DNA from: a virus
Lineage: Duplodnaviria > Caudoviricetes
Direction: 5' to 3' (one strand)
IMG/VR virus record: IMGVR_UViG_3300043422_000045
Location: 47,651 to 111,650 of that record
DNA length: 64,000 nucleotides
Below are positions 8,379-46,291 of this stretch, piece by piece. The notes under the pieces are model-generated. The model searched no databases. It was given only the letters and a program-made list of their open reading frames with translations, and was not told where the DNA came from. The translations under genes and the position numbers were made by a program. Numbering within the stretch: the stretch's first letter is position 1; each line of letters starts with the position of its first letter.

Positions 8379-8379
8379 C

Positions 8380-17429: not shown

Positions 17430-17456
17430 GAAACAAAATAAGGTTGAGATATATAA
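17430..17456 (+). promoter_or_regulatory. Bipartite promoter GAAAC-N17-TATAA (also contains the late motif GATATATAA)
   Basis: GAAAC aaaataaggttgagata TATAA. Confidence 0.65.
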
Positions 17457-17462
17457 GATAAT

Positions 17463-17675
17463 ATGATTCTTAATAACTACATTCAAGCTCAAGAAATGAC
17501 AACAACAGATCATTTTGATTTACACAATGTCTTAAATAAGATGGTGTTAATGGATAAAATTTCTCAAGAAGAAATGGATAATCTCTTAGCTAAATCGGGT
17601 TTAACTAAATTAGAAACTGGTGTATACGAAGATGCGAACGGTTCTGTTTTGGCCATGGCTAGTTTGAAACAGTAA
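17463..17675 (+). CDS. Hypothetical protein (70 aa; may start at 17496)
   Basis: ORF between two promoter motifs with phage-like codon usage. Confidence 0.55.
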   Translation: MILNNYIQAQEMTTTDHFDLHNVLNKMVLMDKISQEEMDNLLAKSGLTKLETGVYEDANGSVLAMASLKQ

Positions 17676-17692
17676 TTTTTTATCATATATAA
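17666..17692 (+). promoter_or_regulatory. Bipartite promoter GAAAC-N17-TATAA upstream of the SSB gene
   Basis: GAAAC agtaattttttatcata TATAA. Confidence 0.7.
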
Positions 17693-27586: not shown

Positions 27587-28723
27587 ATGGCACAAACGCA
27601 CGGAGACATTAGAGCAAAATTTGCTAGTCAATTAAATAAAAACGAAATGTTTAGAGCAATAGATGAAGCTGCAAATGATTCATTAAATGGAGAAGTAAAT
27701 GCTCCAGGTTCTCAGCATCGTAACATGGTTTTAATCGATCAAATCAAAAAGAATGGTAAAATTCAAGATTATATAAATTTTGCATCTTTGTACCCTAATG
27801 GACAAGCATCTGCAGCACTTATTAATTTTATAGCTAGTTTAAATCCAAAAGATTCAATTGAATTAGCAAACAGTTTAGCTTCTTTAAAATCTCCAAGTGA
27901 ATTAACGATTTCGATGTATTCAAATAAAGGTAGTGTATTAGGTAGATTATTCGATTGTATTCCTTCGAGAGGTTTAGGTCGTGGAGAACCATTAATCGCA
28001 TGGATGATTAAAGGTGCTGAAATCCAAGGTGGTAGTGAAAGCTTTGACGTTAAAATCGGTAAAGATAAATACGAAGTTAAAGATTATTCAGGACAAGGAA
28101 ATGCAGCTATTTTAGCAGGTGTTCGTTCTAAAGTAAGTAACTTTGAATTCTGGAAAGAATTAGTAGATACTCTAAGAAGACTTGATAAACTAACAGGGTT
28201 TTCAACACGTTCTAAATTTGATGTATCTTTATATTTTACACCAGAGCTAGTATCATCTATTAATGCTTTATTAAATAGACAACACGTTATTTTATCAGGA
28301 GAATGTAATCTTTCTGATTTAGCTAATTTTAGAAATTTTTATCAACAAGCTAGTCAAATTCAAAATTTCATGCATGGCTACACTAATGTTATTTTAAGAG
28401 GTCCAAATGTAAAACCAATTGAATTAAGCATTGATTTATTAGATCCATCTGATGTTTCTGGAGATACAATCACATTCCATATTGCTAAAGCAGATCAAAC
28501 AGATACCTATGTTTTATCAGAATTAAAGCGTTTAAAATACGTTAGAAATCCAAAGGACTTAGATAATGATATGCAAAAAGCAGTTGATCAAATCCATGCA
28601 GGTTTAACATATATCGTATTTAGAAAAGATGCTATTAATGTAACAACTGATTTTGTTCCAACTGCAATTTCAATTTCAAGTTTAAAATTTGTTGAAAGAA
28701 GCATTAAAAATCCAACAGAATAA
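27587..28723 (+). CDS. Hypothetical protein, possible PD-(D/E)XK nuclease fold
   Basis: GRGE...FDVKI....YEVKD pattern. Confidence 0.45.
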   Translation: MAQTHGDIRAKFASQLNKNEMFRAIDEAANDSLNGEVNAPGSQHRNMVLIDQIKKNGKIQDYINFASLYPNGQASAALINFIASLNPKDSIELANSLASLKSPSELTISMYSNKGSVLGRLFDCIPSRGLGRGEPLIAWMIKGAEIQGGSESFDVKIGKDKYEVKDYSGQGNAAILAGVRSKVSNFEFWKELVDTLRRLDKLTGFSTRSKFDVSLYFTPELVSSINALLNRQHVILSGECNLSDLANFRNFYQQASQIQNFMHGYTNVILRGPNVKPIELSIDLLDPSDVSGDTITFHIAKADQTDTYVLSELKRLKYVRNPKDLDNDMQKAVDQIHAGLTYIVFRKDAINVTTDFVPTAISISSLKFVERSIKNPTE

Positions 28724-28763: not shown

Positions 28764-30770
28764 ATGAATTTTCAAAACTTTCTTAATGAGAAATATAGCA
28801 AAGATGACATCAATACAGCGTATGGCTTCTTTGGCGCTATGGAAGATGCGCATAATGAAAAAATAGCATACGAAATATTTGATGCAGCTGTTAAAGACTT
28901 GATGAAAGAATTTGGTCTTAAAGATGTTGAAGCTGTAGCTTTATTAAATAGCAAAGCGGGTAGACAAGCAGCTGATGCAATTATTGCAGGAGAATGCGAT
29001 GACAGTGCGGTAGCAGGAATGTATTGGTATTTTGGTAAAAACAACAAATCAAAAATCGTTAGCGCTGCTAAAAGTGCAATTAGTGAATCTAACGAATTAG
29101 ACGAAGCTTCTAAATTTGGAGCTCCAGCTGGTTTAACTAAAGCTCAAACTAAAAAGGTTGCAGAAACTTTAGCTAAAGCAATGTCAAAGACTGATAACGC
29201 TAAAGTAACGGTTAATCTTAGAACATTAGAAGAAGATTCTTTTGATTTAGATTATAACGGAGAAGAATATGATGGCGGTTCATATAATATTTATGATGAC
29301 GGTTCTGTTGTTAATCATGCAGTAACACCTAATGAAATTTATGGAACTTCTGATTCTTCAGTTGAAGATTTTATTAAAGGTTTAAAAAAGCCTATTAAAG
29401 AATCTGAAGAAGTAACAGAATCTAAAATTACTTTAAAGAGACAATATACTGAAAATTATCCAGCTAAAACAACTGGAAAGTATGCTGCTGTTAGAAATAA
29501 AATCATCGAAGCTTTAAAAGACGGTGAATTAACTAAAGAAGAATTTGACACTTTAGTTTCTGGTTTAACAGAAGATTCTAAAAGATGGTTAAGAAGAAAT
29601 TCAACCTTCTTTAATATACAAGAAGATAAAGTTGGTTTAACAAAATCTGGTCAAAAAATAGCAGCTGCTCTTTTTCAAGCGGAAGATGTTAATAGCAACT
29701 TAAAAACAAACGAAAATAACAATACAAATATGAAAACTAAATTCATTTATGAATCATTTTCTGAATTCGTTAATTCAATTGATGAGTCTTTTGAATTAGT
29801 TTCAGAATCATTTAAATCATCTATGTTAGCTGGTTTATTTACAAGACAAGGTAAATTTGATGCTACATTAGCAAAAGCATTTTACGGAGCTACTAAATTA
29901 AAATTAGATCAAATTGAAGATGAAGATTTAATTACTACAACGCCTGCATTAGCATACAAAAACAAATTAGAAAGCTCTATTGTTTTTTATATCTCTGATG
30001 TAGAAAAACCAAATACGTATGCACCTTCAGATGCATATTATACAAGTAAAACAATTCCAGGTGAAGGCTATTTATTGGCTGTAGCTTCAGGAGATAATAA
30101 ATTCTATGATAACGTTTGGACTGGTGGAAGATGGGACAGAAATCCAAAAAATAGAACATTAAAACAAGTTGATAATAATCCAAGTGATTCAATCGGTATT
30201 AATAAAAAATACAGCGGATGGGATGCAACAGGACTTTACAATGTTAAAAGAATTTCAGAAGTAGCTGATAGAGCAATTGTAATCAATACATCTTTATTGA
30301 GACAAAAATATTCAGCAGAAGCTGAAAGAGCAGAAAGAGCAGCAGCTAAAAAAGGTGCAATTGCATTTAAATCAGATAAAGATTTTAAAGCTGAAAACAT
30401 GGCAAGATATAATCAAATCATTGCTCAGAAAGCCACTCAAATGCCAATGGACAGTTTAGTTTCAAAAGCAATCGAAAGAATGTCTGAACAAATCAAAGAC
30501 GGTTTAGCTAAACAAACTAAAGGACGTTATGGTGAAATTATCGTAGGTACAAATGCAAAAGGCGCTGAAGCTAAATTAGCAGATGTTGCTAATCACATGC
30601 AGCGTATTTTAGATGATTATTCTGGATATGTTCGTGTTGTTGCACAACAAGAAGATTCAGTTGCTAAATATGGTGAAGCAGAATCTTGGTATAAAAGAGA
30701 AGTTGAACAAAAAGCTAAAGAACTTAAAGACAGACTTGATAAAATAGAATCATTCTCTTATATCTGGTAA
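28764..30770 (+). CDS. Putative capsid-internal multi-module protein
   Basis: MNFQNFLNE N-terminus; LDEA/VTES junctions; internal MKTKFIYESFSEFVN at 29730; preceded by AATATATA. Confidence 0.55.
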   Translation: MNFQNFLNEKYSKDDINTAYGFFGAMEDAHNEKIAYEIFDAAVKDLMKEFGLKDVEAVALLNSKAGRQAADAIIAGECDDSAVAGMYWYFGKNNKSKIVSAAKSAISESNELDEASKFGAPAGLTKAQTKKVAETLAKAMSKTDNAKVTVNLRTLEEDSFDLDYNGEEYDGGSYNIYDDGSVVNHAVTPNEIYGTSDSSVEDFIKGLKKPIKESEEVTESKITLKRQYTENYPAKTTGKYAAVRNKIIEALKDGELTKEEFDTLVSGLTEDSKRWLRRNSTFFNIQEDKVGLTKSGQKIAAALFQAEDVNSNLKTNENNNTNMKTKFIYESFSEFVNSIDESFELVSESFKSSMLAGLFTRQGKFDATLAKAFYGATKLKLDQIEDEDLITTTPALAYKNKLESSIVFYISDVEKPNTYAPSDAYYTSKTIPGEGYLLAVASGDNKFYDNVWTGGRWDRNPKNRTLKQVDNNPSDSIGINKKYSGWDATGLYNVKRISEVADRAIVINTSLLRQKYSAEAERAERAAAKKGAIAFKSDKDFKAENMARYNQIIAQKATQMPMDSLVSKAIERMSEQIKDGLAKQTKGRYGEIIVGTNAKGAEAKLADVANHMQRILDDYSGYVRVVAQQEDSVAKYGEAESWYKREVEQKAKELKDRLDKIESFSYIW

Positions 30771-32817: not shown

Positions 32818-33080
32818 TGAAACCATATACAATTTATTATTTACATTACAAAGATGAAATGCTATTAGTTCCAAACTGGAGCAATAAGTCTGATTTCGTT
32901 GCTTGTGTAATGGCTGAAGATGCTCAAATGGCCATAGATAAAGTAAAAGCATTTACATGTGGCTTTATTAAAGTTATGGGAGTTGCCTCGGGTAGAGAAG
33001 ACTGGGTAAATGAAAATGGTCCAATCGACAATGGTAAAATTATGCCTTTAGGTGGTTGGCCAAAAACTGAAACAAATTAA
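32817..33080 (+). CDS. Hypothetical protein (87 aa)
   Basis: TAATG coupling to the previous gene. Confidence 0.55.
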   Translation: MKPYTIYYLHYKDEMLLVPNWSNKSDFVACVMAEDAQMAIDKVKAFTCGFIKVMGVASGREDWVNENGPIDNGKIMPLGGWPKTETN

Positions 33081-33095
33081 TTCGTATAAATATAA
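33069..33095 (+). promoter_or_regulatory. Bipartite promoter GAAAC-N17-TATAA heading the modification operon
   Basis: GAAAC aaattaattcgtataaa TATAA. Confidence 0.7.
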
Positions 33096-33112
33096 TATCT
33101 AAAACATAATCT

Positions 33113-33412
33113 ATGAACATATTAGACCAAGCAAACAAGATTATTAATGAACGCTCTGAAGAAAAAGAACGTCAATATGGTCCATTTGAAGAAGGTATGC
33201 GCAGAGCCGCACAAATTGCCAGCGGTATGACTGGTAAAGATTTTTCTGGTAGTGACATGTATGCAGCTTTAGTTGCATTAAAATTAAGTCGTCACTCATA
33301 CAACTACAAACAAGATAATTTATTAGATGCAGTAGCTTACTTAGGTGCTCTAGATAATTATGTTGAAAAATTCGGTTATAAAGACACTGAAAAACCAGTT
33401 ACGAATGAATAA
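33113..33412 (+). CDS. DUF6378-like (all-alpha nucleotide pyrophosphohydrolase-related) protein
   Basis: IL..A..II..R....YG.F......A......LKLSR......DN.LD..AY. Confidence 0.65.
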   Translation: MNILDQANKIINERSEEKERQYGPFEEGMRRAAQIASGMTGKDFSGSDMYAALVALKLSRHSYNYKQDNLLDAVAYLGALDNYVEKFGYKDTEKPVTNE

Positions 33413-34484
33413 TCAAGAGTTTAGTTATTTTACAGACTACGTTACTGACAAATCAGCTAAGATTGGTATTTCAGCTCTTGTTGGTAAATTAAGCCCTAAG
33501 ATTAGTTCACATAAATCTGCGTGGTGTTTTATGATTGCCAATCAATTGACAAATGCTGGATTTGAAAGCGTAGATGTTATCACATCAAACGAAACTGATT
33601 GGAATAACTATGACATTATCTTAATCGATCATGGTATGGAATTCAAAGGCAACTTTAATATTTTTGGAGGAGCTAATGATGATTTATACAATCAAATAAT
33701 TCGCATTAAGAGTAAAGTTAAGATGTACAGTTTACATCATGAGATGCCATGTATTGGCGCTTTAATTGAACAACGATTAAAAACAGGTACAGATTTGTTT
33801 AAGACTTTAGAACAAGATATTGATTTGATCAAAGGTATTTGTGCCAATGACATTCCTAAAATAGATCATATTGAAAAAACAGACAAGCTTTGTTTTGGTG
33901 ATAGTCACTCATTTGGAATGTATCAAGCTGGTTATATGTGTCAAAGACACGATGGTTTAACAATGCACGGCGCTCTTAAAAGAGGATTAGATTCTTACAT
34001 TTATCCGTGGATAAAAACACTAACGTGTTATATGGGTAATATTGATGTTAGACATCACTTGATGAGACAAGCTAATCCTAAAAATGCAGTTGAAATCATG
34101 ATGAAAAATTATGAGCAACAACTTAAATCATTACAAGAAAACGGAGTTAGTAACATCGAATTGATCCATGTTTTACCAATCGAAAATGAATCAAGAGTTT
34201 TACCAAAAACAGGTTATTATAAAGACACTCCATTTTATGGCTCTTGGTTAGAACGTACTCAATTGTCTAAAGAAATCAATAACTATATTGATGAAATGTG
34301 CAAAAGAAATAATTGGAAAGTTTACAAACATTCGGATGTTTATTTTAATGATAAAGGTGAATTAACATTTGATGTGATGGAACAACCAAAATCTGTTCAT
34401 ATTTCTAGAGAGTATTATCGATGGGACATGGCAGCAAATTGCCCAAACAAAAGATTAGAAAAGAAAACAATGTCTTTATTTTAA
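33405..34484 (+). CDS. Hypothetical protein with SGNH/GDSL-like C-terminal domain
   Basis: FGDSHS, MGNIDVRHH and SVHIS motifs; ATG at 33405 overlaps the previous gene. Confidence 0.5.
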   Translation: MNNQEFSYFTDYVTDKSAKIGISALVGKLSPKISSHKSAWCFMIANQLTNAGFESVDVITSNETDWNNYDIILIDHGMEFKGNFNIFGGANDDLYNQIIRIKSKVKMYSLHHEMPCIGALIEQRLKTGTDLFKTLEQDIDLIKGICANDIPKIDHIEKTDKLCFGDSHSFGMYQAGYMCQRHDGLTMHGALKRGLDSYIYPWIKTLTCYMGNIDVRHHLMRQANPKNAVEIMMKNYEQQLKSLQENGVSNIELIHVLPIENESRVLPKTGYYKDTPFYGSWLERTQLSKEINNYIDEMCKRNNWKVYKHSDVYFNDKGELTFDVMEQPKSVHISREYYRWDMAANCPNKRLEKKTMSLF

Positions 34485-34501
34485 GACGCAAACATAAATT
34501 T

Positions 34502-34756
34502 ATGAAATATTTATATTTTTCTGCACCTTGGTGTGGACCTTGTAGAACGTTAGGACCAATTATGGAAAAGGTTGGCCAAAAGTACACTGTTGAAAAAATT
34601 AACGTAGATGAGAACGAAGAGTTATCAGCACAATTTGGAATTAGAAGCGTGCCTACTGTTATTTTAGTAGATGAATCAAATAAAGAATTAGAGCGTACTG
34701 TCGGTGTAAAAGCTGAAGGAGACTATTACGATATTTTTGAAAAGCATAACGCATAA
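34502..34756 (+). CDS. trxA: Thioredoxin
   Basis: FSAPWCGPC, INVD and IRSVPT; start at ATG 34502. Confidence 0.92.
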   Translation: MKYLYFSAPWCGPCRTLGPIMEKVGQKYTVEKINVDENEELSAQFGIRSVPTVILVDESNKELERTVGVKAEGDYYDIFEKHNA

Positions 34757-35979
34757 TGAAAATTCAAACTACAAGATATTACGACGAGTTTATAAGATAC
34801 TTTGATCTTGCACAAAAGCAGCAAGATCTTTGTAATTTAGGAACAGTTGGATATATGGAAAGTAATATGGGCGATTCTTTAATGGAGCACATAGAACTTT
34901 ATGATGTTGTTGAAAGAAAATATGCAGGTTTTTCTCAAATCGTAAACGATATTTTTTATGGTTGGACACCAGAGCATCCTTATTGGGATAAAATGAAAAA
35001 TGGCATTTACACAACACAACGAGAAGAAGTTGCTAAAAACTGGACAGGAAAGCAGAAAATATTTGGATTAGAAGAATGGCTTTATCTTTTTATTCTACAC
35101 AGAGTTACAGGTTCTGGCATTAATTATGCAACTAAACCTTCTGGTTATCACAACACAATCTTATTTCATTTACATGAATGTGATACGATAGAAGATATGT
35201 GCGAAGTGATTAAATCACACCAATATCCATTTTATACTTCAGTTGGTTATCAATTTCCAGCCTTTCCAAAGCCACCAGAAAATCAAACTAATTCAGAAGA
35301 TTTGTTTGTCGGTATGACAGGCTTTTCTAATGAAGTAAAATACACTTACAAAAGAGGTGGAGATTATTATCTTTGCGAATTTGCGCCAAGATTAGCTAGA
35401 GAATTAGCAACATATTTAACAACTGGAGAAAAGAAACAACTTAGAGAATTAGGTGAATGGCTTTTTAAATGGAACTATGATAATGGTTTAAGAGCTTATA
35501 GATTTCAATATGCTGCAGTTATTGCAGACATCGCAGATTGGTACCCAGAATATGTTGTTAGAGAATCTATGTTTTATTACGGAACAAACGCAGTAGAATG
35601 TATTGGTTATTTAGCAGATCCTGAAAGTGGCAAAGGTAATAAAAAAGGAGAAGAATTCTTAGACGCAGTTATGACTAAGATCTATAATGATACAGGATCG
35701 CTGCCATATAACGCAGAAGATGTGGCCTGTGATTATATCAGATGGATCGAAAACTACTTAAGACCAGGAAAAGATTACAACCACGTAGACATGGACACAG
35801 TCTGGAATAGCAGCGTAATAAAAGACCATCCATTTGGTAGACAAAAAGCCATGTTAGATTTAGGTATAGTTAAGACGTTTAATGGAATGACTAGTCACCC
35901 ATCAGATGATAAAATTTTAGTAGAAGCTGGTCTAACAGTAGATCAATATAAAGAAATGGTTAAAAAAATATACAAATAA
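34756..35979 (+). CDS. aGPT-Pplase / amino acid:DNA transferase-like protein (HhH-glycosylase-related fold)
   Basis: LFILHRVTG, FQYAAVIAD, YGTNAVECI and AEDVACDYIRW echo the family's F..Q...D / GPGA..GL / E..LCE..KY motifs (judged by eye). Confidence 0.55.
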   Translation: MKIQTTRYYDEFIRYFDLAQKQQDLCNLGTVGYMESNMGDSLMEHIELYDVVERKYAGFSQIVNDIFYGWTPEHPYWDKMKNGIYTTQREEVAKNWTGKQKIFGLEEWLYLFILHRVTGSGINYATKPSGYHNTILFHLHECDTIEDMCEVIKSHQYPFYTSVGYQFPAFPKPPENQTNSEDLFVGMTGFSNEVKYTYKRGGDYYLCEFAPRLARELATYLTTGEKKQLRELGEWLFKWNYDNGLRAYRFQYAAVIADIADWYPEYVVRESMFYYGTNAVECIGYLADPESGKGNKKGEEFLDAVMTKIYNDTGSLPYNAEDVACDYIRWIENYLRPGKDYNHVDMDTVWNSSVIKDHPFGRQKAMLDLGIVKTFNGMTSHPSDDKILVEAGLTVDQYKEMVKKIYK

Positions 35980-37031
35980 TGAATACTCTATTAGCAGAAG
36001 ATTTTATAAGACCAGATGCTTGCGAATTACCAAAAGCAAAAAAGAAATATCAGCATGCAGAATCTTTGTTTGAAGACGAAGGTGTTCATTATACAAACAT
36101 TGAATATCCAAATACGGCTGATGTTAAAATGAAAAATGGCAAGCCTATTGAATCTTGGATGAAAGATTGGACTCAAGAAGAACGTTTCGATAAATTCTTT
36201 GAGTTTTGTGAAGCCTTTGATAAAAGACAAGACAAATTATTAGCTGAAGATTATCAGATATTTTCACACAGATTACACTGGCATGAACATCCTTTTTGCG
36301 ATTTAATGAAAGATGTGACTGATCCAATGAAAAGACTTTGGTATACTTTGGTGTTTTCATTTACTAATGAGCATTGGGGAACTTTAACAATGTTAATCAA
36401 TGATGGCGAAGAAGCTCTTAAGAAGCATTTTAAAGATAACAGACATGCACGCAATGATTTGTTTCAGATATACTATCCAAAGGGCACAGATGTTAAGGAG
36501 TGGCTTCTATGGGGTCCAAAAAGAGCGGCAAAAAAAATGTCACACGTTCTAGAGAATTTAGACAGACCTTATACAATGATGGAGTTTGCTAAAATCATGG
36601 AGAAGTATTTTAAAGAGGATCAAAACTTTAGAAGTCCTTTATATCCATGTAAAAATGCAGCTAGATATTTAGCCATGGCGTATCCGCATATTATAGATCC
36701 AGAAACACCATTATATGGTGGAACAGGACACTTTGATGGCATGCAACAAGTTTTTAGCGGTGCTAATGTTAACGGTAAAGTTAAGTATACTATCGGTAAA
36801 AACGGCGAATTTATTGCCGAGAATAAATATGCTGAGTTGTGGTTAGAACAAATGGAAACTTTAGTTAATCATCCTAAGAATCCAATGACAAGCCAAAAAT
36901 GGTTAAACATAGAAGATAAAACATGTTTCTTTTATAAACACATTGCAATTTCACACGGTGTTAAATCACCAACAAAAAGAATACCTTATACTTGGATATT
37001 TCCAGAATCATTTTCACTTAAAAAAGATTAA
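35979..37031 (+). CDS. Second aGPT-Pplase-like paralog
   Basis: YTLVFSFTN, YPCKNAARYL..AYP, GGTGHFDGM and NIEDKTCFFYKH are colinear with the motifs of the preceding gene. Confidence 0.5.
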   Translation: MNTLLAEDFIRPDACELPKAKKKYQHAESLFEDEGVHYTNIEYPNTADVKMKNGKPIESWMKDWTQEERFDKFFEFCEAFDKRQDKLLAEDYQIFSHRLHWHEHPFCDLMKDVTDPMKRLWYTLVFSFTNEHWGTLTMLINDGEEALKKHFKDNRHARNDLFQIYYPKGTDVKEWLLWGPKRAAKKMSHVLENLDRPYTMMEFAKIMEKYFKEDQNFRSPLYPCKNAARYLAMAYPHIIDPETPLYGGTGHFDGMQQVFSGANVNGKVKYTIGKNGEFIAENKYAELWLEQMETLVNHPKNPMTSQKWLNIEDKTCFFYKHIAISHGVKSPTKRIPYTWIFPESFSLKKD

Positions 37032-37925
37032 ATGTCACACAATAATCATACAAAAAGTAGTTTTAATCAAGACTTAAATTTAGCTTACCCAAACAGAGAT
37101 GCTTGGTTGGAATTAGCAGGAGATTGGCAAGATCCATTTCCAGCTCCTATTGTAAAAGAACACAATGGCTTTAATGTAGTTAGAGAAGATTTAATGGGCT
37201 TTGGTTCTAAGTGTCGCTTTGGCGATATTTTAGTTCAAAGTTGTCCATCAGATACTTTAGTTTATGTACAGCCAAGATACGGATTTGCTGGAATTTCTTT
37301 AGCTTATTTAGCTGAGAAATACAATAAAAAACTAGTTCTTTTTAGTCCAAGTCAAAAAGAAATTTCAGATCATCAAGCTATTTGTATTGAAAGAGGCGCA
37401 GATATGAAATTTCGTAGAATTGCAGCCATGCCAAATCTTAATAAGATTGCAGCTGATTGGGCCAAAGAAAACAATGGCTTTTTTATACCACTTGGTTTAA
37501 GACACGAATTAGTTACAGCAGCCGCAGTTAAAGTAGCTTATGACATGGCACAAGTACATGGTGAACCTAAAGAAGTTTGGCATGCTATTTCAACTGGTGT
37601 TTTAGGCAGAGCTTTGCAAATTGCATGGCCTAACGCAGAATTTAATGGAGTTGCAGTAGCTAGAAATATCAAAGATGGCGAAAGAGGTAGAGCAACTATT
37701 TGGTCACATCCAAAAGAATTTAGCCAAAACGTAGCCACTGAATTTGAACCACCATTTCCAAGTGCATTAAATTATGATGCTAAAGCTTGGGAATTAATGC
37801 TTAAAAATGGAAGCCCGGGAGCTTGGTTCTGGAATGTCGGTGGTAACCCTAAGCCAGAAAATGAAGATACTAAACAATCAATCAATGCCCAAAGAGAATG
37901 GGGCGAAATCATAGACGTAAAATAA
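37032..37925 (+). CDS. PLP-dependent enzyme, fold type II (cysteine synthase/TrpB-like)
   Basis: VVREDL..GSKCR (PLP lysine), ISTGVLG phosphate loop, YDAKAW and FWNVG. Confidence 0.75.
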   Translation: MSHNNHTKSSFNQDLNLAYPNRDAWLELAGDWQDPFPAPIVKEHNGFNVVREDLMGFGSKCRFGDILVQSCPSDTLVYVQPRYGFAGISLAYLAEKYNKKLVLFSPSQKEISDHQAICIERGADMKFRRIAAMPNLNKIAADWAKENNGFFIPLGLRHELVTAAAVKVAYDMAQVHGEPKEVWHAISTGVLGRALQIAWPNAEFNGVAVARNIKDGERGRATIWSHPKEFSQNVATEFEPPFPSALNYDAKAWELMLKNGSPGAWFWNVGGNPKPENEDTKQSINAQREWGEIIDVK

Positions 37926-37930
37926 TAATT

Positions 37931-39079
37931 ATGAACAGACCAACATTAGCATTTGCAACCATGTGTAAAAACGAAGAACACGTCATAGGACAAGTTCTTG
38001 ATGCTGTTGCACCCTACATTGATTATCTTGTAGTTGCCGACAACGGTTCTACCGATAGAACATTAGAAATTGTCCAAGAATTTATGGATCGCACTGGAAT
38101 TCCAGGAGAAATTCATAACGATGAATGGTTCGGTTTTGACAAGAATAAAAACATGATGATGGAATATGTACATGGTAAAACAGACTATGTATTACACTTG
38201 GACGCTGATGATATTTTAGCAGGCGATTTTAGTTTTACCAACGATGATGCTGGTGAAGATGCATATCACATGACTATGAAACGTGGAACAGCAACTTATA
38301 AAGCAACCGTTATTTATAATAATAGATTGCATTGGAAATTCTGTGGAACAGCGCACACAATAATCAAATGCATTGAGAGACCTCATTTTTCAACAGGAGA
38401 TTTATCAACCAGAGGTTGGGTTATATGTGATCCCGTTGGTTCAAGAGCATTTGATCCTAAGAAATATTTTTACGATGCTGAAAGATTGAAAAAACAATTT
38501 TTCGATACTTTGGTAGATGATCCAGATGGATTAAATCATAGATCAGCTTTCTACTGTGCACAGAGTTATATGGATTCTAACATGATGATAGAAGGTTTAC
38601 AATGGAATAGGCTTTACACAAGATTAAAAGATACTTGGAGCGAAGAAAGATTTGAAGCACAAATGAGAATTTCAAGATGTTTGATGGCTATACCAGATTC
38701 AGATCCAAATTTAATTGTTGATGAAATGAATAAGGCTATAGAAATTTCACCAGATAGAGCTGAACCATATTTTTATTTGGGTACTTATTTAAATAAAATA
38801 GGAAATCACGAATTGGCTTATGACTATTTGAAAAAAGCTAAAGACATCTCTTTAAAATATGCACAAAGTAAATATTTATTATTTGTAACATCTAATTGTT
38901 ATGGTAAATATGTCAATGATGAATTATCAGTTGCTTGTTTTTGGACCAATAGAGTTGAAGAAGGCGTTAAATTAATTAATCAAATTATTAATGATCCAGA
39001 CTTTGAACACTCTAAGCCAAGACTTATTGACAATTTAAATCATTTTAAAAATTTAGAAGCAAAATTACAAGATGCTTAA
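37931..39079 (+). CDS. Glycosyltransferase family 2 with TPR-like C-terminus
   Basis: MCKNEE, DNGSTDRT, LDADD (DXD), and TPR-like PDRAEPYFYLG. Confidence 0.85.
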   Translation: MNRPTLAFATMCKNEEHVIGQVLDAVAPYIDYLVVADNGSTDRTLEIVQEFMDRTGIPGEIHNDEWFGFDKNKNMMMEYVHGKTDYVLHLDADDILAGDFSFTNDDAGEDAYHMTMKRGTATYKATVIYNNRLHWKFCGTAHTIIKCIERPHFSTGDLSTRGWVICDPVGSRAFDPKKYFYDAERLKKQFFDTLVDDPDGLNHRSAFYCAQSYMDSNMMIEGLQWNRLYTRLKDTWSEERFEAQMRISRCLMAIPDSDPNLIVDEMNKAIEISPDRAEPYFYLGTYLNKIGNHELAYDYLKKAKDISLKYAQSKYLLFVTSNCYGKYVNDELSVACFWTNRVEEGVKLINQIINDPDFEHSKPRLIDNLNHFKNLEAKLQDA

Positions 39080-40178
39080 TAAGAATTACGATTATTTAAT
39101 AGTCGGCGCAGGTTTTTACGGCTCAGTTTGTGCATACGAACTGAGCCGTTTAGGCAAGAAAGTACTCGTGATTGATAAAAGAAATCACATTGGTGGAAAT
39201 GCATATACCAAAAAAGTAAATGATATTGACGTTCACCAATACGGAGCTCATATATTTCATACAAACGATAAAGCTATATGGCAATGGATCCAACAATTTG
39301 GAGAATTTAACAATTTTAAAAATTCGCCAATAGCTAATTATAAAGATGAGATGTATTCTCTTCCATTTTCAATGTGGACTTTTTATAAATTATGGGGAAC
39401 TAAAACACCAGAGGAAGCTAAAAAAATTATAGATTCACAAAGATACACTGGTCCGATTACAAATTTAGAAGAACAAGCGCTTTCTTTAGTAGGCACAGAT
39501 ATTTACGAAAAGCTAATTAAAGGTTACACTGAAAAGCAGTGGAAGAAATCAGCTAAACTTTTACCAGCTTCAATAATTAAAAGATTGCCAGTACGTTTTA
39601 CATGGGATAATAATTATTTTAACGACAAATATCAGGGTATTCCAGTCGATGGCTACACTAGTCTATTTGAAAAAATGTTAGAAGGTATAGACGTAGAATT
39701 AAATCAAGATTATCTAAAAGACAGAGATTATTGGAATTCTAAAGCAGATAAAATAATTTACACAGGACCAATAGATGCCTATTTTAATTACAAGTATGGC
39801 GATTTAGAATATAAGACAGTCAATTTTGTAACAGAGACCATAGAAAATAAAGACTTTCAAGGTAATGCTGTTGTAAATTATACAGATGCGACTATTCCAT
39901 ATACAAGAATTATAGAGCATAAGCATTTTAATTTTAAAAATCAAAAAGATACAGTAGTTTCTTGGGAATATCCAGTAGACTACAGAAGAGGCGTTGAACC
40001 TTATTATCCGGTCAATGATACGCGTAACGCATCTATTTTTAAAAAATATAAACAAAGCGCAAGTAATATAAAAAATATATTTTTTGGTGGAAGATTAGCA
40101 GAATACAAGTACTATGACATGCATCAAGTTATAGCATCTGCTTTGTCAGATTTAAAAACCAATACATTTTTTAAATAA
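39072..40178 (+). CDS. glf: UDP-galactopyranose mutase
   Basis: GAGFYG FAD-binding motif, HIGGNAY, YGAHIFHT, YTRIIEHKHF, PYYP and GRLAEYKYYDMH. Confidence 0.95.
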   Translation: MLNKNYDYLIVGAGFYGSVCAYELSRLGKKVLVIDKRNHIGGNAYTKKVNDIDVHQYGAHIFHTNDKAIWQWIQQFGEFNNFKNSPIANYKDEMYSLPFSMWTFYKLWGTKTPEEAKKIIDSQRYTGPITNLEEQALSLVGTDIYEKLIKGYTEKQWKKSAKLLPASIIKRLPVRFTWDNNYFNDKYQGIPVDGYTSLFEKMLEGIDVELNQDYLKDRDYWNSKADKIIYTGPIDAYFNYKYGDLEYKTVNFVTETIENKDFQGNAVVNYTDATIPYTRIIEHKHFNFKNQKDTVVSWEYPVDYRRGVEPYYPVNDTRNASIFKKYKQSASNIKNIFFGGRLAEYKYYDMHQVIASALSDLKTNTFFK

Positions 40179-40185
40179 TTCAATA

Positions 40186-40212
40186 GAAACAATTAAGCCT
40201 TTTTAAATATAA
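40186..40212 (+). promoter_or_regulatory. Bipartite promoter GAAAC-N17-TATAA
   Basis: GAAAC aattaagcctttttaaa TATAA. Confidence 0.7.
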
Positions 40213-40228
40213 CCTGAAAAATAAGAAC

Positions 40229-40696
40229 ATGGCAAACATAGACAACGAATGCAAAGATTTAGAAGTTAATGACTTCTATGATGAATCTACGACCCATTTA
40301 GCAGATATAATGGAGCATCAAAAAGAGATGCAGGAAAAGACTTATGGAATTAAGTTTGAAGATATGACAATTAGAGAAGTCATGAATTTTTGGCATGTAA
40401 ATACGCATGCTGTGATTGATGAAATTCACGAGATGACAGACGCTTTAGGTGGTATTAAAGACGGTAGCGGTAACGCAGTTTGGAAATACTGGAAAAAAGA
40501 TTTCGCCAAGTATGACACTTTAAAAGTTGCAGATCTTTCTGAAGGTGATAAAAAAGAATTGTATATGGAATGGATCGATATTCTGCATTTCTTTATCAAT
40601 TACGCAGCTTCCATTGGCTTAGACGCGAAAACAGCATATAACTATTACTTCACAAAGGCAGCTGAAAATAAAGCACGCCAACAACGCGGATATTAA
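40229..40696 (+). CDS. gp56: Dimeric dUTP/dCTP pyrophosphatase (T4 gp56-like)
   Basis: DEIHE...LGG...AVWKYWK...EWIDILHF...K.AEN.ARQ.RGY closely parallels T4 gp56. Confidence 0.8.
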   Translation: MANIDNECKDLEVNDFYDESTTHLADIMEHQKEMQEKTYGIKFEDMTIREVMNFWHVNTHAVIDEIHEMTDALGGIKDGSGNAVWKYWKKDFAKYDTLKVADLSEGDKKELYMEWIDILHFFINYAASIGLDAKTAYNYYFTKAAENKARQQRGY

Positions 40697-40697
40697 C

Positions 40698-42116
40698 ATG
40701 CTATTAGACATTGAACAAAGAGAGAAGGAAATTATAGTTTCATATTTCAACAAAGAAGGCACAGTAGATTTTAAACGTTATCCAATAACACAATTTAAAA
40801 ATTGGTATGTTTGTGATCCTAAAGAAGCTGGTGCTAGTCGAGATTTTAAAAACTGGGATGGACGTTCAGTGAAACTTTCACAAGCTAGACAATTTAATAA
40901 ATTTTCATTAGTTTATTTTATGGACGGCTTACCAGAAAAAGACAAAGAAGTTATTTACGAATACAATTCACCTAGAACATATTTCGTCGATATTGAAACT
41001 GAAATTGTCGATGGCTTTCCAAAGGCCGAAGAAGCTAAATCAAGAATCTTAGCTTTTTCTATAGTTACACCAGACAAAAAGGTAATCGTATTAGGTTTAG
41101 AAGACTTAGAGTCTGATAAAATTAAAAAGATTGAAGATGACACTAATGAATACATGAAAAAATTTGGTGATGAGTGGACCTTTCAATATATTAAATTTAA
41201 AACAGAGTATGACATGGTTTATACTTTCGTTTATAAATTTATGCCTAAGTTTCCTATGATGACTGGCTGGAACTTCATTAACTATGACTGGCAGTATATT
41301 GTAAATCGATGTAAACATCTACAGATCGATATAGTTGGTTCGTCCAGGACAGGATCATTAGATCCAGAAGACAGTAGACCATTGCACATGGGAATTCTAG
41401 ATTACATGCAGTTATATGACAAATATGATAGATCTGTTAAAGTAAAAGAGTCAAACTCTTTGGATTACGTTTCTAGTCAAGTATTAGGTACTAATAAAAT
41501 TAAATTCACAGGATCATTACAGGATTTATACAGAGATAATTTTACCAAGTACATCTATTATAACGTAATTGACTCCATCTTAGTTTATTACATTGATAAA
41601 AAATTAAAATCAATGGATGTACTTATCACTCTTGCATCTATTACAAAAATGCCATTATATAAAGCAGCTTCTCCGGTGGCAGTAACTGAAGCTTTGATTG
41701 CAAGAAAAATTGCATCTGAAGGTAAACGTATTGGAACCGAAGCTAGAGAAGATAATAAAAAAGACGGTCAATTTGCTGGAGCATTTGTTAAAGAACCTAT
41801 TGTTGGTTTTTATGAAGGAGTAAGTGCATTTGACTACGCTTCACTATATCCATCTATTATGAGGCAGTTTAATGTTTCTCCAGATGCTTTTATCGAAAAG
41901 GTGCCATCTTCTAAAATAGAAGAAAGACGTAAAGATAAAAATGTTATTGTTTGTGAAAACGGAGTTGTTTATAAAAACGAAGATTCTATTCTTAAAAAAA
42001 TATTATCAGATCTTTATTCACAGCGAAAAGAGTATAAGGGAATGTCCTATGAATATTTTCACAAAGCAGAAGAAATAAAAAAGAAAATAAAAGCACTTGA
42101 AAAAGCAGGTCAATAA
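40698..42116 (+). CDS. gp43A: Family B DNA polymerase, N-terminal subunit (3'-5' exonuclease plus motif A)
   Basis: ExoI DIETE, ExoII GWNFINYD, ExoIII YNVID, motif A FDYASLYPS; ends after the first fingers helix (RKEYK). Confidence 0.9.
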   Translation: MLLDIEQREKEIIVSYFNKEGTVDFKRYPITQFKNWYVCDPKEAGASRDFKNWDGRSVKLSQARQFNKFSLVYFMDGLPEKDKEVIYEYNSPRTYFVDIETEIVDGFPKAEEAKSRILAFSIVTPDKKVIVLGLEDLESDKIKKIEDDTNEYMKKFGDEWTFQYIKFKTEYDMVYTFVYKFMPKFPMMTGWNFINYDWQYIVNRCKHLQIDIVGSSRTGSLDPEDSRPLHMGILDYMQLYDKYDRSVKVKESNSLDYVSSQVLGTNKIKFTGSLQDLYRDNFTKYIYYNVIDSILVYYIDKKLKSMDVLITLASITKMPLYKAASPVAVTEALIARKIASEGKRIGTEAREDNKKDGQFAGAFVKEPIVGFYEGVSAFDYASLYPSIMRQFNVSPDAFIEKVPSSKIEERRKDKNVIVCENGVVYKNEDSILKKILSDLYSQRKEYKGMSYEYFHKAEEIKKKIKALEKAGQ

Positions 42117-45482: not shown

Positions 45483-45510
45483 GAAACAAAATGACTAATT
45501 CAATTATAAT
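45483..45510 (+). promoter_or_regulatory. Bipartite promoter GAAAC-N17-TATAAT
   Basis: GAAAC aaaatgactaattcaat TATAAT. Confidence 0.7.
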
Positions 45511-45541: not shown

Positions 45542-46291
45542 ATGAAAGTAGTTATTAACAAAGTAGATCAGAACAACTTTGTAGCATTCATTAATCGTTT
45601 AAGAGTTATTGATTCTTTTGTCTATTTCAAAATTAAAGACGAACAAATCATCTCTTCAGCTTATTTGCCACAACGTGACGCTGTAAAACACCACACACTT
45701 CCAATTTCAGAAGTATTTCAAATTGATGCTAGTCAATTAACAACAGACAAAGACCTTAAAGTGGCTTTCTTTGATGCTGGTAAAATTATCGAAGCATTCA
45801 AACAATTTGAATACGATTCTATTCAAGCAGAAATTGAATTCGTAGAAAACGATGAAGACTGTGTAGCTTCTACATTTAAAATCTTTAATGACGAGTTAGA
45901 AATCGTTTTAGCTTGTTCAGAACCATCTTTAGGTTACAAAGACTTAACCGAGTCTCAATTACAAAATATCTTCATGACTGAAGGTGCTGAAGTTAACTTT
46001 GATTTATCATTCACTGATACATCTAAGATTAAATCTCTTTTCAACTTAGATAAAGACGAGACTTTTGCAATTTCAACTTCTAAAGAAGGTGTTCGTATTA
46101 AAGGTAAATCTTACAACAAATTAATCAATTCAACTAGCGTTTCTAAGGCTAATGTGACTGTTTACAAAAAGTATTTGAACTTGTTTGACAAAGAAGATTA
46201 TTCTACTTATGTCTTTAACAATAGAGTAGTTTTACGCTCTAAAGACTCAAACACTCTTTTAACAATCGCAACTTGCCAAAGCACTGATTAA
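45542..46291 (+). CDS. Putative DNA polymerase sliding clamp (gp45-like)
   Basis: 249 aa, acidic, with a two-domain alpha/beta pattern; translationally coupled to the polymerase C-terminal subunit. No diagnostic motif. Confidence 0.5.
   Translation: MKVVINKVDQNNFVAFINRLRVIDSFVYFKIKDEQIISSAYLPQRDAVKHHTLPISEVFQIDASQLTTDKDLKVAFFDAGKIIEAFKQFEYDSIQAEIEFVENDEDCVASTFKIFNDELEIVLACSEPSLGYKDLTESQLQNIFMTEGAEVNFDLSFTDTSKIKSLFNLDKDETFAISTSKEGVRIKGKSYNKLINSTSVSKANVTVYKKYLNLFDKEDYSTYVFNNRVVLRSKDSNTLLTIATCQSTD

What the first reader, a model, noticed from the sequence alone, without database searches (positions are those of the whole stretch)
33069..40696. Putative DNA-hypermodification operon combining two amino acid:DNA transferase-like paralogs and a PLP enzyme with a galactofuranose pathway (GT2 + glf)
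Seen: one promoter (GAAAC-N17-TATAA) drives a tightly coupled run of DUF6378-like, SGNH-like, thioredoxin, two aGPT-Pplase-like paralogs, a fold-II PLP enzyme, GT2-TPR and UDP-galactopyranose mutase. A gp56-like dNTP pyrophosphatase and the DNA polymerase follow. Established: in phages ViI and M6, aGPT-Pplase/AADT plus PLP enzymes attach an amino acid to 5-hmU and then decarboxylate it; T4 gp56 purges canonical dCTP/dUTP; Glf makes UDP-Galf. Inference: this phage may make a new multi-step base modification (amino-acid derived, possibly acylated by the SGNH-like protein and/or galactofuranosylated). I know of no described Galf-modified phage DNA. No hydroxymethylase or 5-hmU kinase is visible in this window.
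Basis: partly seen in the sequence, partly recalled or inferred. Interest (0 to 1): 0.85.

Follow-up and report, generated by a model that had tools for sequence, protein, structure and literature searches.

The report
Phage cytosine DNA-hypermodification gene cassette
A marine jumbo phage carries a conserved gene set, related to the enzymes that decorate thymine in some phage DNAs, that here is linked to a cytosine-hydroxymethylating enzyme and probably builds a still undescribed cytosine modification.

Summary
ORF 34756-35979 (AADT_A) folds confidently, and its best match among 48,161 solved chains is PaMx11 gp46, the only solved amino acid:DNA transferase (Z 9.7). It carries the Glu-x3-Cys catalytic motif. 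ORF 35979-37031 (AADT_B) is a remote paralog (hhalign E 9e-7) with the same invariant motif. The PLP enzyme belongs to the family of M6 gp52, the proven DNA-side-chain decarboxylase.

- The conserved unit is AADT_A, AADT_B, PLP and the SGNH-domain protein. SGNH and AADT_A are fused in 7 of 7 long homologs.
- The linked thymidylate-synthase homologs are T4 gp42-type dCMP hydroxymethylases (Asp at the N177 position). They occur on 14 of 24 related contigs and in the complete 256-kb relative. With the gp56-like dCTPase, this points to 5-hydroxymethylcytosine, not 5-hmU. No 5-hmU DNA kinase was found.
- GT2-TPR and Glf sit in the operon only in the closest relatives, so DNA galactofuranosylation is only possible. 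Glf-assisted DNA glycosylation was already proposed in print in 2026.

Verdict: a new cytosine-directed, kinase-less variant of AADT/PLP hypermodification. The chemistry is inferred, not shown.

The parts
33069..33095 (+). Promoter-like motif GAAACA-N-ATATAA, 18 bases upstream of the first gene
   Evidence: Pattern found 6 times in the window against 1.43 expected. Sequence read. Function not shown.
33113..33412 (+). DUF6378 protein. Not part of the conserved core.
   Evidence: PF19905 E 5.6e-11. Present only in L001-L007, 7 of 35 related loci.
33360..34484 (+). Two-domain protein P0003: an N-terminal alpha/beta domain plus a C-terminal SGNH (GDSH) domain. Core member. The true start is probably downstream of 33360.
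   Evidence: Foldseek matches SGNH esterases at E 1.4e-4. VIA Z 13.2, rmsd 2.9, 153 aligned. Invariant G180 D181 S182 H183, G226, H347 and nearly invariant N227. Fused to AADT_A-like domains in 7 of 7 long homologs.
34421..34756 (+). Thioredoxin. Lineage-specific.
   Evidence: PF00085 E 3.8e-16. Found in 6 of 35 loci.
34756..35979 (+). AADT_A (P0001): HhH-glycosylase-like, amino acid:DNA transferase-like enzyme with E321/C325
   Evidence: AF2 pLDDT 93.9. VIA top hit 8z2m_A, Z 9.7. BFVD top hit is named an AADT-domain protein, 59% identical. E321, C325 and D326 conserved in at least 90% of 63 sequences.
35979..37031 (+). AADT_B (P0002): remote paralog of AADT_A with invariant N310, E312, D313, C316
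   Evidence: hhalign against the AADT_A family: E 7.6e-6 and E 9.4e-7. Motif invariant in 51 of 51 sequences. Not folded here.
37032..37925 (+). Fold-type II PLP enzyme of the M6 gp52 family
   Evidence: phrog_7093 E 1.9e-40. M6 gp52 hits the same PHROG at 2.2e-159. hhalign prob 96.2%, E 2.1e-9 over 212 columns. K60 invariant in 14 sequences.
37898..39079 (+). GT2 (GT-A) glycosyltransferase with TPR repeats. Accessory.
   Evidence: PF00535 E 3e-12, TPR_17 E 7.8e-4. In the operon in only 4 of 35 loci.
39072..40178 (+). UDP-galactopyranose mutase (Glf). Accessory.
   Evidence: PF03275 E 3.2e-79. Lies elsewhere in the genome of relative G002.
40186..40212 (+). Second copy of the promoter-like motif
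40229..40696 (+). gp56-like dCTP/dUTP pyrophosphatase
   Evidence: 34-37% identity over 97% of its length to annotated T4-like dCTPases, E down to 3e-19. phrog_173.
40698..42116 (+). Family-B DNA polymerase, N-terminal piece (exonuclease domain and start of the polymerase domain)
   Evidence: PF03104 and PF00136. phrog_2062.

Best explanation
The region encodes a post-replicative DNA pyrimidine-hypermodification cassette. It is a cytosine-directed, kinase-less relative of the thymidine hypermodification pathways of phages M6, ViI and PaMx11.

Proposed course (step 1 rests on homology, steps 2-5 on inference):
1. The gp56-like dCTPase and a gp42-type dCMP hydroxymethylase replace dC with 5-hydroxymethyl-dC in phage DNA. 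The hydroxymethylase lies outside this window. It is present in the complete genome of a close relative and directly abuts the cassette in marine T4-like relatives.
2. The SGNH-domain protein works together with AADT_A. I propose that it takes the place of the 5-hmU DNA kinase and makes or handles an ester at the 5-hydroxymethyl group.
3. AADT_A, and where present AADT_B, flips the base out and attacks C6 with its conserved Cys, helped by the conserved Glu. It then couples an amino acid to the C5 methylene.
4. The M6 gp52-type PLP enzyme decarboxylates or otherwise trims the appended amino acid.
5. In this lineage only, Glf and GT2-TPR may add galactofuranose.
For: Fold and motif:
- The AADT_A model (pLDDT 93.9) has PaMx11 gp46 as best match of 48,161 chains (Z 9.7, rmsd 3.9, 210 aligned). 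HhH DNA glycosylases follow.
- Glu-x3-Cys has the same spacing as the essential E243/C247 of gp46 (PMC11472151 passages; PMC8989533 passages). It is conserved in AADT_A and invariant in AADT_B.

PLP enzyme: it sits in the same PHROG as M6 gp52, and hhalign gives E 2.1e-9.

Conserved synteny: among 28 diverged loci, 25 have AADT_B, 22 have PLP and 20 have SGNH as complete ORFs. Many loci are cut by contig ends.

Gene fusion: 7 of 7 representatives of 600 aa or more are SGNH + AADT_A fusions.

Cytosine link:
- A TS homolog lies on the same contig in 14 of 24 records.
- All 9 of those aligned, plus P0245 of the complete relative, have Asp at the N177 position, Asp at the L143 position and D169 kept. 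This is the 5hmdCMP-synthase signature described in PMC13326640.
- The TS gene abuts AADT_A in L014 and lies 76 bases upstream of it in L027.
- The dCTPase is gp56-like.

Genomic setting: the cassette lies among replication genes, namely polymerase and RNR here and gp45/gp44 in relatives.
Against: - No experiment supports any step.
- Neither AADT-like ORF reaches the Pfam ADDT or HMUDK_hel models. Only 1 of 63 homologs hits ADDT, at E 0.00099.
- hhalign against 8 known clade-2 AADTs is not significant.
- Z 9.7 is within the range the tool warns can arise for helical proteins. The queuine-salvage enzyme Qng1, which acts on a free nucleotide, scores Z 8.2.
- AADT_B was not folded.
- No activating kinase was identified. 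The SGNH role is pure inference.
- The hydroxymethylase is not on the window's own 111-kb record and not on the 64%-complete G002 record.
- A dCMP deaminase sits beside the TS gene in L034, so a route to 5-hmU is not excluded.
Confidence: 0.55

Rival explanations
1. This is a thymidine (5-hmU) hypermodification as in ViI and M6, made with an unseen dUMP hydroxymethylase and 5-hmU DNA kinase, and then acylated and/or galactofuranosylated.
For: The fold and PLP family match the thymidine systems. A dCMP deaminase lies beside the TS gene in L034 and could in principle turn 5hmdCMP into 5hmdUMP. A 239-aa AAA_33/Zeta_toxin-type P-loop kinase exists elsewhere in G001, with the same Pfam signature as PaMx11 gp49.
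Against: All 10 linked TS homologs examined carry Asp, not Asn, at the pyrimidine-discriminating position. The three known dUMP hydroxymethylases in the same alignments carry Asn. PF18748 and PF18723 find nothing in G000, G001 or G002. The 239-aa kinase is over 100 kb from the operon and shows no significant similarity to gp49.
Confidence: 0.1
2. The AADT-like proteins act on free nucleotides before replication, for example by tailoring 5hm-dCMP. They would then resemble Qng1-type HhH enzymes that act on nucleotides rather than on DNA.
For: Qng1/DUF2419 structures score Z 8.2 and 8.1, close to gp46 at 9.7. No DNA kinase was found. The 5hmC carbamoyltransferase also accepts 5hmdCTP (PMC8670742 passages).
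Against: The best structural match is the DNA-acting gp46. The PLP partner family (M6 gp52) acts on DNA (PMC8989533 passages). A polymerase would have to accept a bulky amino-acid adduct.
Confidence: 0.15
3. GT2-TPR and Glf have nothing to do with DNA. They would glycosylate a virion protein or a host surface glycan and merely sit inside the operon in this lineage.
For: They are absent from the operon in 31 of 35 related loci, including the 92%-identical L007. In G002, Glf lies about 90 kb from the cassette. TPR domains and the weak SunS peptide-glycosyltransferase hit fit a protein substrate. Phage Glf genes are also common in Streptococcus prophage records.
Against: A GT2-TPR gene also lies 1.6 kb upstream of the gp42-type gene in the distant locus L026. 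A TS homolog and Glf are 1.3 kb apart in Lactobacillus phage ATCCB. Glf was proposed for DNA glycosylation in RL38J1. GT-A enzymes do glycosylate phage DNA (bioRxiv 10.1101/2023.12.21.572611 passages).
Confidence: 0.6
4. The cassette is not a nucleic-acid modification system at all. It would be, for example, a small-molecule or amino-acid metabolic module.
For: No family-level match for the two AADT-like ORFs. SGNH and PALP enzymes are generic.
Against: The coherent HhH-glycosylase/AADT structural neighbourhood. The specific gp52-family PLP enzyme. Repeated adjacency to gp42-type genes and to replication genes.
Confidence: 0.08

Closest known systems
Thymidine hypermodification pathways of Pseudomonas phages M6 and PaMx11 and Salmonella phage ViI (5-HMUDK kinase, clade-2 aGPT-Pplase/AADT, PLP decarboxylase)
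   Same: An HhH-like transferase fold with Glu-x3-Cys. A paralogous pair of aGPT-Pplase-like genes, as described for those systems. A PLP enzyme of the M6 gp52 family. Adjacency to a thymidylate-synthase-type hydroxymethylase and to replication genes.
   Different: The linked hydroxymethylase is dCMP-type. No P-loop 5-hmU DNA kinase was found. An SGNH-domain protein is the constant partner instead and is often fused to the transferase. Sequences fall outside Pfam ADDT and HMUDK_hel and outside PHROGs 6364 and 2396.
T4 5-hydroxymethylcytosine pathway (gp56 dCTPase, gp42 dCMP hydroxymethylase, alpha/beta-glucosyltransferases)
   Same: A gp56-like dCTPase in the operon. gp42-type genes next to the cassette in T4-like marine relatives, with gp45 and gp44 downstream.
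   Different: There are no GT-B glucosyltransferases. An AADT/PLP/SGNH cassette appears to be the tailoring module. Aeromonas phages 44RR, 31 and 25 have genes 42 and 56 but no glucosyltransferase (PMC2993671 passages). They carry the SGNH-domain protein as part of a 795-aa ORF.
Glycosylated 5-hydroxycytosine of Rhizobium phage RL38J1 and Pootjesviridae, with a phage-encoded Glf
   Same: A phage Glf is encoded in a genome that also has a dCMP-specific TS homolog. UDP-Galf was proposed as the sugar donor for DNA.
   Different: RL38J1-type synthases carry D169N and make 5hoC. The TS homologs here keep D169. RL38J1 uses GT-B-like transferases, and no AADT or PLP genes are described there in the passages read.
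5hmC carbamoyltransferase pathway found by MetaGPA
   Same: A metavirome-derived tailoring enzyme paired with a dCMP hydroxymethylase.
   Different: A different enzyme family and different chemistry.

Membership tests
Amino acid:DNA transferase (clade-2 aGPT-Pplase, Pfam PF18724 ADDT) | Match to the family HMM above its threshold | tested here: not met
   No hit for P0001 or P0002 even at E<=10. The six-frame search of the record finds none. 1 of 63 homologs hits, at E 0.00099. hhalign against 8 known members is not significant.
Amino acid:DNA transferase (clade-2 aGPT-Pplase, Pfam PF18724 ADDT) | Two-helical-bundle, HhH-glycosylase-like fold of PaMx11 gp46 (8Z2M) | tested here: met
   For P0001: 8z2m_A ranks first of 48,161 chains, Z 9.7, rmsd 3.9, 210 aligned. 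The Z is moderate for a helical protein. P0002 was not folded and is linked only through hhalign to the P0001 family.
Amino acid:DNA transferase (clade-2 aGPT-Pplase, Pfam PF18724 ADDT) | Essential Cys with a neighbouring Glu (gp46 E243/C247) | tested here: met
   E321/C325 are at least 90% conserved in 63 sequences. E312/C316 are invariant in 51. The spacing equals that of gp46. Equivalence rests on motif and position, not on a significant residue-level alignment.
Amino acid:DNA transferase (clade-2 aGPT-Pplase, Pfam PF18724 ADDT) | Works with a P-loop 5-hmU DNA kinase (PF18748, PF18723) | tested here: not met
   No match in G000, G001 (complete) or G002.
Amino acid:DNA transferase (clade-2 aGPT-Pplase, Pfam PF18724 ADDT) | Transfers an amino acid to an activated 5-hydroxymethylpyrimidine in DNA | not testable with these tools
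   Needs biochemistry.
M6 gp52-type PLP-dependent decarboxylase (phrog_7093, PALP fold) | Family HMM match and homology to M6 gp52 | tested here: met
   P0004 hits phrog_7093 at 1.9e-40. M6 gp52 hits it at 2.2e-159. hhalign prob 96.2%, E 2.1e-9.
M6 gp52-type PLP-dependent decarboxylase (phrog_7093, PALP fold) | PLP-binding lysine | tested here: met
   K60 is invariant in 14 sequences and aligns with the SK motif of gp52. That this Lys binds PLP is inferred.
T4 gp42-type dCMP hydroxymethylase (TS homologs linked to the cassette, outside the window) | Asp at the ThyA N177 position, acidic residue at L143, Asp169 kept, catalytic Cys | tested here: met
   P0245 and 9 of 9 cassette-adjacent homologs meet all four. 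The criteria come from PMC13326640. The product was not tested.
T4 gp56 dCTPase/dUTPase | Full-length homology to gp56-type enzymes | tested here: met
   34-37% identity over 97% of the length, E 2e-17 to 3e-19. Substrate not testable here.
SGNH hydrolase / acyltransferase | SGNH fold with block I Ser, block III Gly-Asn and block V His | tested here: met
   VIA Z 13.2 and Foldseek E 1.4e-4. GDSH (S182), G226 and H347 are invariant and N227 is nearly invariant. The acidic triad partner is unclear (E341 is invariant).
UDP-galactopyranose mutase | GLF domain plus N-terminal FAD-binding Rossmann domain | tested here: met
   PF03275 E 3.2e-79 and PF13450 E 1.4e-22.
DNA glycosyltransferase (GT-A type) | Transfers a sugar to a DNA base | not testable with these tools
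   Only GT2 family membership is shown. No comparison with the published phage DNA GT-A enzymes was possible because their sequences were not at hand.

The most novel reading that the evidence does not exclude
A widespread family of marine T4-like phages, marine jumbo phages and probably Aeromonas phages 44RR, 31 and 25 converts 5-hydroxymethylcytosine in DNA into an amino-acid-derived hypermodified cytosine. In this family an SGNH acyl-transfer or esterase domain, often fused to the HhH transferase, replaces the P-loop DNA kinase as the step that activates the hydroxymethyl group. In the window's lineage the product is further galactofuranosylated.
Probability: 0.25. Interest if true: 0.9.

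Novelty: new variant of a known kind. Interest (0 to 1): 0.8.

Why it matters
In the papers read, and in the literature searches run here, the biochemically shown amino acid:DNA transferase pathways all start from 5-hydroxymethyluracil and need a DNA kinase. A cytosine-directed, kinase-less version would add a new class of natural cytosine modification and a new way of activating a DNA hydroxymethyl group.

It would also address what phages such as 44RR, 31 and 25, which have genes 42 and 56 but no glucosyltransferase, do with their 5hmC.

The family is abundant in ocean metagenomes (950 and 471 hits). It therefore bears on restriction evasion, on the sequencing and cloning bias of marine viromes, and on new enzymes for labelling 5hmC.

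Tried and rejected
- BLASTP of the two ORFs against each other found nothing.
- megablast and tblastn of the region and of both ORFs against 50,697 phage records found no match.
- phmmer and a profile search against PDB sequences found nothing useful.
- Foldseek of the P0001 model against the PDB gave only weak HhH glycosylases (best E 1.1) and did not list 8Z2M.
- hhalign of both families against PaMx11 gp46, gp50 and a profile of 8 AADTs was not significant, although the Glu-x3-Cys region is brought into register against gp50.
- PF18725, an accession I guessed, turned out to be an unrelated HEPN family.
- The C-terminal half of 44RR2.8t ORF233c hits HMUDK_hel only weakly (E 0.0036, below cut-off). 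It does not match the A1 or A2 profiles. Its aGPT-Pplase nature is therefore only a lead, supported by GPGA and E-x3-C motifs read.
- The 128-aa P-loop kinase of G001 sits with an RNA-ligase-sized ORF and a second ORF that I read, by eye and untested, as an RNA ligase and a phosphatase. I judged it an RNA-repair kinase, not a base kinase.
- The N-terminal domain of P0003 got no assignment, because SGNH hits fill the lists.
- Supplements of the papers were not available. These include Fig. S11 of PMC13326640 on the Galf pathway and the contig tables of PMC8989533. They may already list contigs of this kind.

Full report
**Setting.** The window is the last 64 kb of a 111,650-bp IMG/VR virus record that CheckV rates 39% complete. 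It has about 31% G+C, and its genes of 90 codons or more run on the + strand, with only short ORFs nested inside them on the other strand. The family-B polymerase piece is closest to uncultured huge phages (45.6% identity) and then to jumbo phages of Sphingomonas and Chryseobacterium. A relative whose AADT_A protein is 99% identical lies on a 256,444-bp record with direct terminal repeats, rated 100% complete (G001). This is therefore a marine jumbo phage.

**Observation.**
- DUF6378: E 5.6e-11.
- A protein with a weak GDSL hit, whose C-terminal half is an SGNH fold with an invariant GDSH motif.
- Thioredoxin.
- Two ORFs without any Pfam, PHROG or NCBIfam match.
- A PALP-type PLP enzyme.
- GT2 with TPR repeats.
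- Glf: E 3.2e-79.
- A pyrophosphatase 34-37% identical to T4-like gp56 dCTPases over 97% of its length.
- The N-terminal part of a family-B polymerase.

Genes from 33113 to 40178 overlap or abut. The motif GAAAC-N17-TATAA is at 33069. The pattern occurs 6 times in the window against 1.43 expected, and 1 of 100 shuffles reaches 6. Five copies are on the + strand, at least four of them in gaps between the ORFs. One of these lies at 40186, between Glf and the dCTPase. The dCTPase and polymerase therefore probably have their own start. A generic sigma-70 scan is not enriched.

**The two unknown ORFs.** BLASTP finds no similarity between them, and no cultured phage record matches either. They are abundant in metagenomes: 950 and 471 hits.

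For AADT_A (34756-35979), a search of 1.84 billion cluster representatives gave 144 relatives. I aligned 62 of them with the query, choosing full-length proteins of about 290-500 aa (A1). Columns D258 and G276 are invariant. E321, C325 and D326 are conserved in at least 90% of sequences.

AlphaFold2 on this alignment gave pLDDT 93.9 and pTM 0.92. The structural searches gave the following:
- Foldseek against the PDB found only weak HhH glycosylases (best E 1.1).
[quoted passage not shown] Another AADT-domain protein, an endonuclease III and a 'HMUDK helical domain' protein follow lower down.
- VIA-align against 48,161 chains put PaMx11 gp46 (8z2m_A) first: Z 9.7, rmsd 3.9 Å, 210 residues aligned. 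This is the only solved amino acid:DNA transferase.
- Next came Qng1/DUF2419 (Z 8.2 and 8.1) and a run of HhH DNA glycosylases (Z 5-7.7).

The tool warns that such Z values can arise for helical proteins. Against that, the whole top of the list is one superfamily, headed by the AADT.

gp46 uses E243, T244 and C247 (PMC11472151, passages). The Cys and the neighbouring Glu are essential in M6 gp51 and ViI gp247 (PMC8989533, passages). AADT_A has E321-x3-C325 and AADT_B has E312-x3-C316, the same spacing.

AADT_B aligns to the AADT_A family over its C-terminal half. hhalign gives prob 84%, E 7.6e-6 over 130 columns. With 51 sequences it gives 91.3%, E 9.4e-7 over 133 columns. N310, E312, D313 and C316 are invariant in 51 of 51.

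Results against membership:
- Neither ORF hits Pfam ADDT or HMUDK_hel.
- Only 1 of 63 relatives hits ADDT (E 0.00099).
- hhalign against a profile of 8 known clade-2 AADTs, or against gp46 and gp50 alone, is not significant.

The protein-language-model neighbours, clusters where 11-53% of members carry HMUDK_hel or ADDT, are only a lead. I read the pair as two new, divergent clades of the aGPT-Pplase/AADT superfamily. Known systems also often carry a paralogous pair.

**The PLP enzyme.** P0004 matches phrog_7093 at E 1.9e-40 over nearly the whole profile. M6 gp52 is the PLP-dependent decarboxylase of the 5-NedU pathway. It matches the same PHROG at 2.2e-159. hhalign of the P0004 family against gp52 gives prob 96.2%, E 2.1e-9 over 212 columns. 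K60 is invariant. This is the most specific tie to known DNA hypermodification.

**What is conserved.** I compared the window's proteins with 35 related IMG/VR loci.
- AADT_A is in all 35 by construction.
- Among the 28 diverged loci (61-68% identity), complete ORFs are found for AADT_B in 25, PLP in 22 and the SGNH protein in 20. Many loci end at contig edges.
- AADT_B is missing between its neighbours in L009 and L034.
- DUF6378 (7 of 35) and thioredoxin (6 of 35) are lineage-specific.
- GT2-TPR and Glf are in the operon in only 4 of 35 loci (L003-L006, at least 95% identical). L007 (92%) goes straight from PLP to the dCTPase.
- That relative (G002) does carry Glf, about 90 kb away.

The seven representatives of 600 aa or more are all fusions. 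Each has a complete SGNH-type protein at the N-terminus (E 2e-54 to 4e-95) and a complete AADT_A-like domain at the C-terminus (E 4e-77 to 7e-119). That is 7 of 7, by hmmsearch over 145 stored proteins. The SGNH protein and AADT_A therefore work together.

**Which base.**
- The window's own record has no thymidylate-synthase homolog.
- The complete relative G001 has a canonical ThyA and a second, divergent homolog, P0245.
- Of 24 cassette-bearing records searched, out of the 35 loci's records, 14 have a TS homolog on the same 11-33 kb contig.
- This gene abuts AADT_A in L014, lies 76 bases upstream of it in L027, and is one small ORF away in L026.
- I aligned 9 of the 14 with P0245, two annotated dCMP hydroxymethylases and three dUMP hydroxymethylases, namely PaMx11 gp51, M6 gp58 and SH-Ab 15599.
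- P0245 and all 9 read RSND..G...D. They have Asp at the ThyA N177 position, Asp169 kept, and Asp three residues before the catalytic Cys. The dCMP hydroxymethylases are the same.
- The three dUMP enzymes have Asn at the N177 position. In the separate alignment, the G002 ThyA also has Asn there.
- PMC13326640 (passages) gives N177D as the dCMP determinant, L143D/E as the mark of hydroxymethylases, and D169N as the mark of 5-hydroxycytosine synthases. These genes fit the 5hmdCMP-synthase pattern.

Downstream genes in the diverged loci are gp45 clamp and gp44 clamp loader, so those contigs are T4-like marine phages. Together with the gp56-like dCTPase in the window, the substrate is most likely 5-hydroxymethylcytosine.

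No 5-hmU DNA kinase family member was found in G000, G001 or G002. G001 has two AAA_33 kinases. One sits with an RNA-ligase-sized ORF and another ORF that I read by eye, untested, as RNA-repair genes. The other is a 239-aa AAA_33/Zeta_toxin protein far from the operon, with no significant similarity to gp49. A dCMP deaminase lies beside the TS gene in L034, which leaves a small door open for 5-hmU.

**Mechanism proposed.**
- Shown by homology: the dCTPase and the gp42-type hydroxymethylase feed 5hm-dC into DNA.
- Inferred: the SGNH-domain protein handles an ester at the hydroxymethyl group in place of phosphorylation. The basis is an analogy: Pfam names PF18723 the helical domain of the 5-hmdU DNA kinase, which I take to mean that the kinase is joined to a clade-1 aGPT-Pplase domain in the thymidine systems, and the SGNH domain is joined to AADT_A here.
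- Inferred: AADT_A, and AADT_B where present, attacks C6 through its Cys and couples an amino acid at the C5 methylene.
- Inferred: the gp52-type PLP enzyme decarboxylates the appended amino acid.
- From memory, not from a call: cytosine-5 methyltransferases can couple thiols to 5hmC without prior activation. A kinase-free route is therefore chemically plausible.

**Sugar genes.** The case for galactofuranosylated DNA rests on the following:
- their position in the operon in four close relatives;
- a second, 21%-identical GT2-TPR gene 1.6 kb upstream of the gp42-type gene in L026, one of the 8 loci inspected;
- a TS homolog and Glf 1.3 kb apart in Lactobacillus phage ATCCB;
- the published proposal for RL38J1.

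Against it: the variable position, the TPR domain, and Glf in many prophage records. I put it at about one in four.

**Cultured handles.** The SGNH-type protein has tblastn matches in 43 phage records, 38 of them Aeromonas T4-like phages. In 44RR2.8t it is the first half of the 795-aa ORF233c. The C-terminus of that ORF hits HMUDK_hel weakly (E 0.0036, below cut-off) and shows GPGA and E-x3-C motifs, but it does not match my profiles. A 2010 review notes that 44RR, 31 and 25 have genes 42 and 56 but no glucosyltransferase (PMC2993671, passages). 44RR2.8t has no Glf.

**Novelty.** Four literature searches found no paper describing an AADT-type pathway on 5hmC: aGPT-Pplase with hypermodification; 5hmC with hypermodification, amino acid and marine; dCMP hydroxymethylase with aGPT-Pplase; and AADT with hydroxymethylcytosine.

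Noticed in passing
window 40698-42116 and 46291-47487: The family-B DNA polymerase seems split. The 838-aa polymerase-sized ORF of L034 matches both the 472-aa N-terminal piece (27%) and the 398-aa ORF at 46291-47487 (30%). RNR small and large subunits and two other genes lie between the two pieces. Aeromonas phage 44RR2.8t also has an annotated split gene 43.
   Followed up: partly
window 17430-17456, 17666-17692, 33069-33095, 40186-40212, 45483-45509: The + strand motif GAAACA-N15/16-(A/T)TATAA recurs, mostly in gaps between ORFs (6 matches in all against 1.43 expected). It is a candidate phage-specific promoter.
   Followed up: partly
window 25701-27581: A 626-aa protein whose C-terminal third is a cytidylyltransferase-like domain (PF01467, E 3.5e-9). 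The large neighbouring ORFs (24349-25629, 27587-28723, 28764-30770) have no family match.
   Followed up: no
L005 12413-13012 (also L006): A 199-aa ORF with a NUMOD3 motif, read here as homing-endonuclease-like, is inserted between AADT_B and the PLP gene in two close relatives.
   Followed up: partly
L040 (Erythrobacter phage R6L gp1) and L041 (Microcystis phage Mae-JY30, 5995-6705): The only cultured-phage tblastn matches of the PLP enzyme (33-35% identity) lie inside a gene annotated as a DNA modification methylase. In Mae-JY30 it is directly after two ParB/sulfiredoxin genes. This may be another DNA-modification context for this PLP family.
   Followed up: no
L054 (G001 5154-8447): A 369-aa ORF, a 128-aa P-loop kinase and a 221-aa ORF lie side by side. 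By eye the outer two look like an RNA ligase and a metallophosphatase, as in a T4-like RNA repair set. No search was run on them.
   Followed up: no
L053 1321-2040 (G001): A 239-aa AAA_33/Zeta_toxin-type kinase with homologs in Pelagibacter phage HTVC008M, the Melnitz phages, Atu_ph07 and RsoM2USA. It has the same Pfam signature as the 5-hmU DNA kinase PaMx11 gp49 but no significant pairwise similarity. It is a candidate dNMP or base kinase.
   Followed up: partly
L026 4478-4885 and 5522-5947; L034 8728-9189: Small genes flank the gp42-type gene in the T4-like relatives: DUF1599 'nucleotide modification associated domain 1' (E 2.5e-4), a weak UDG-superfamily hit (E 0.0014), and a dCMP deaminase (E 1e-19).
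   Followed up: no
P0357 (639 aa, metagenome representative): One SGNH + AADT_A fusion also shows a weak MGDG_synth (GT28 N-terminal) hit at residues 311-375 (E 8.4e-4).
   Followed up: no
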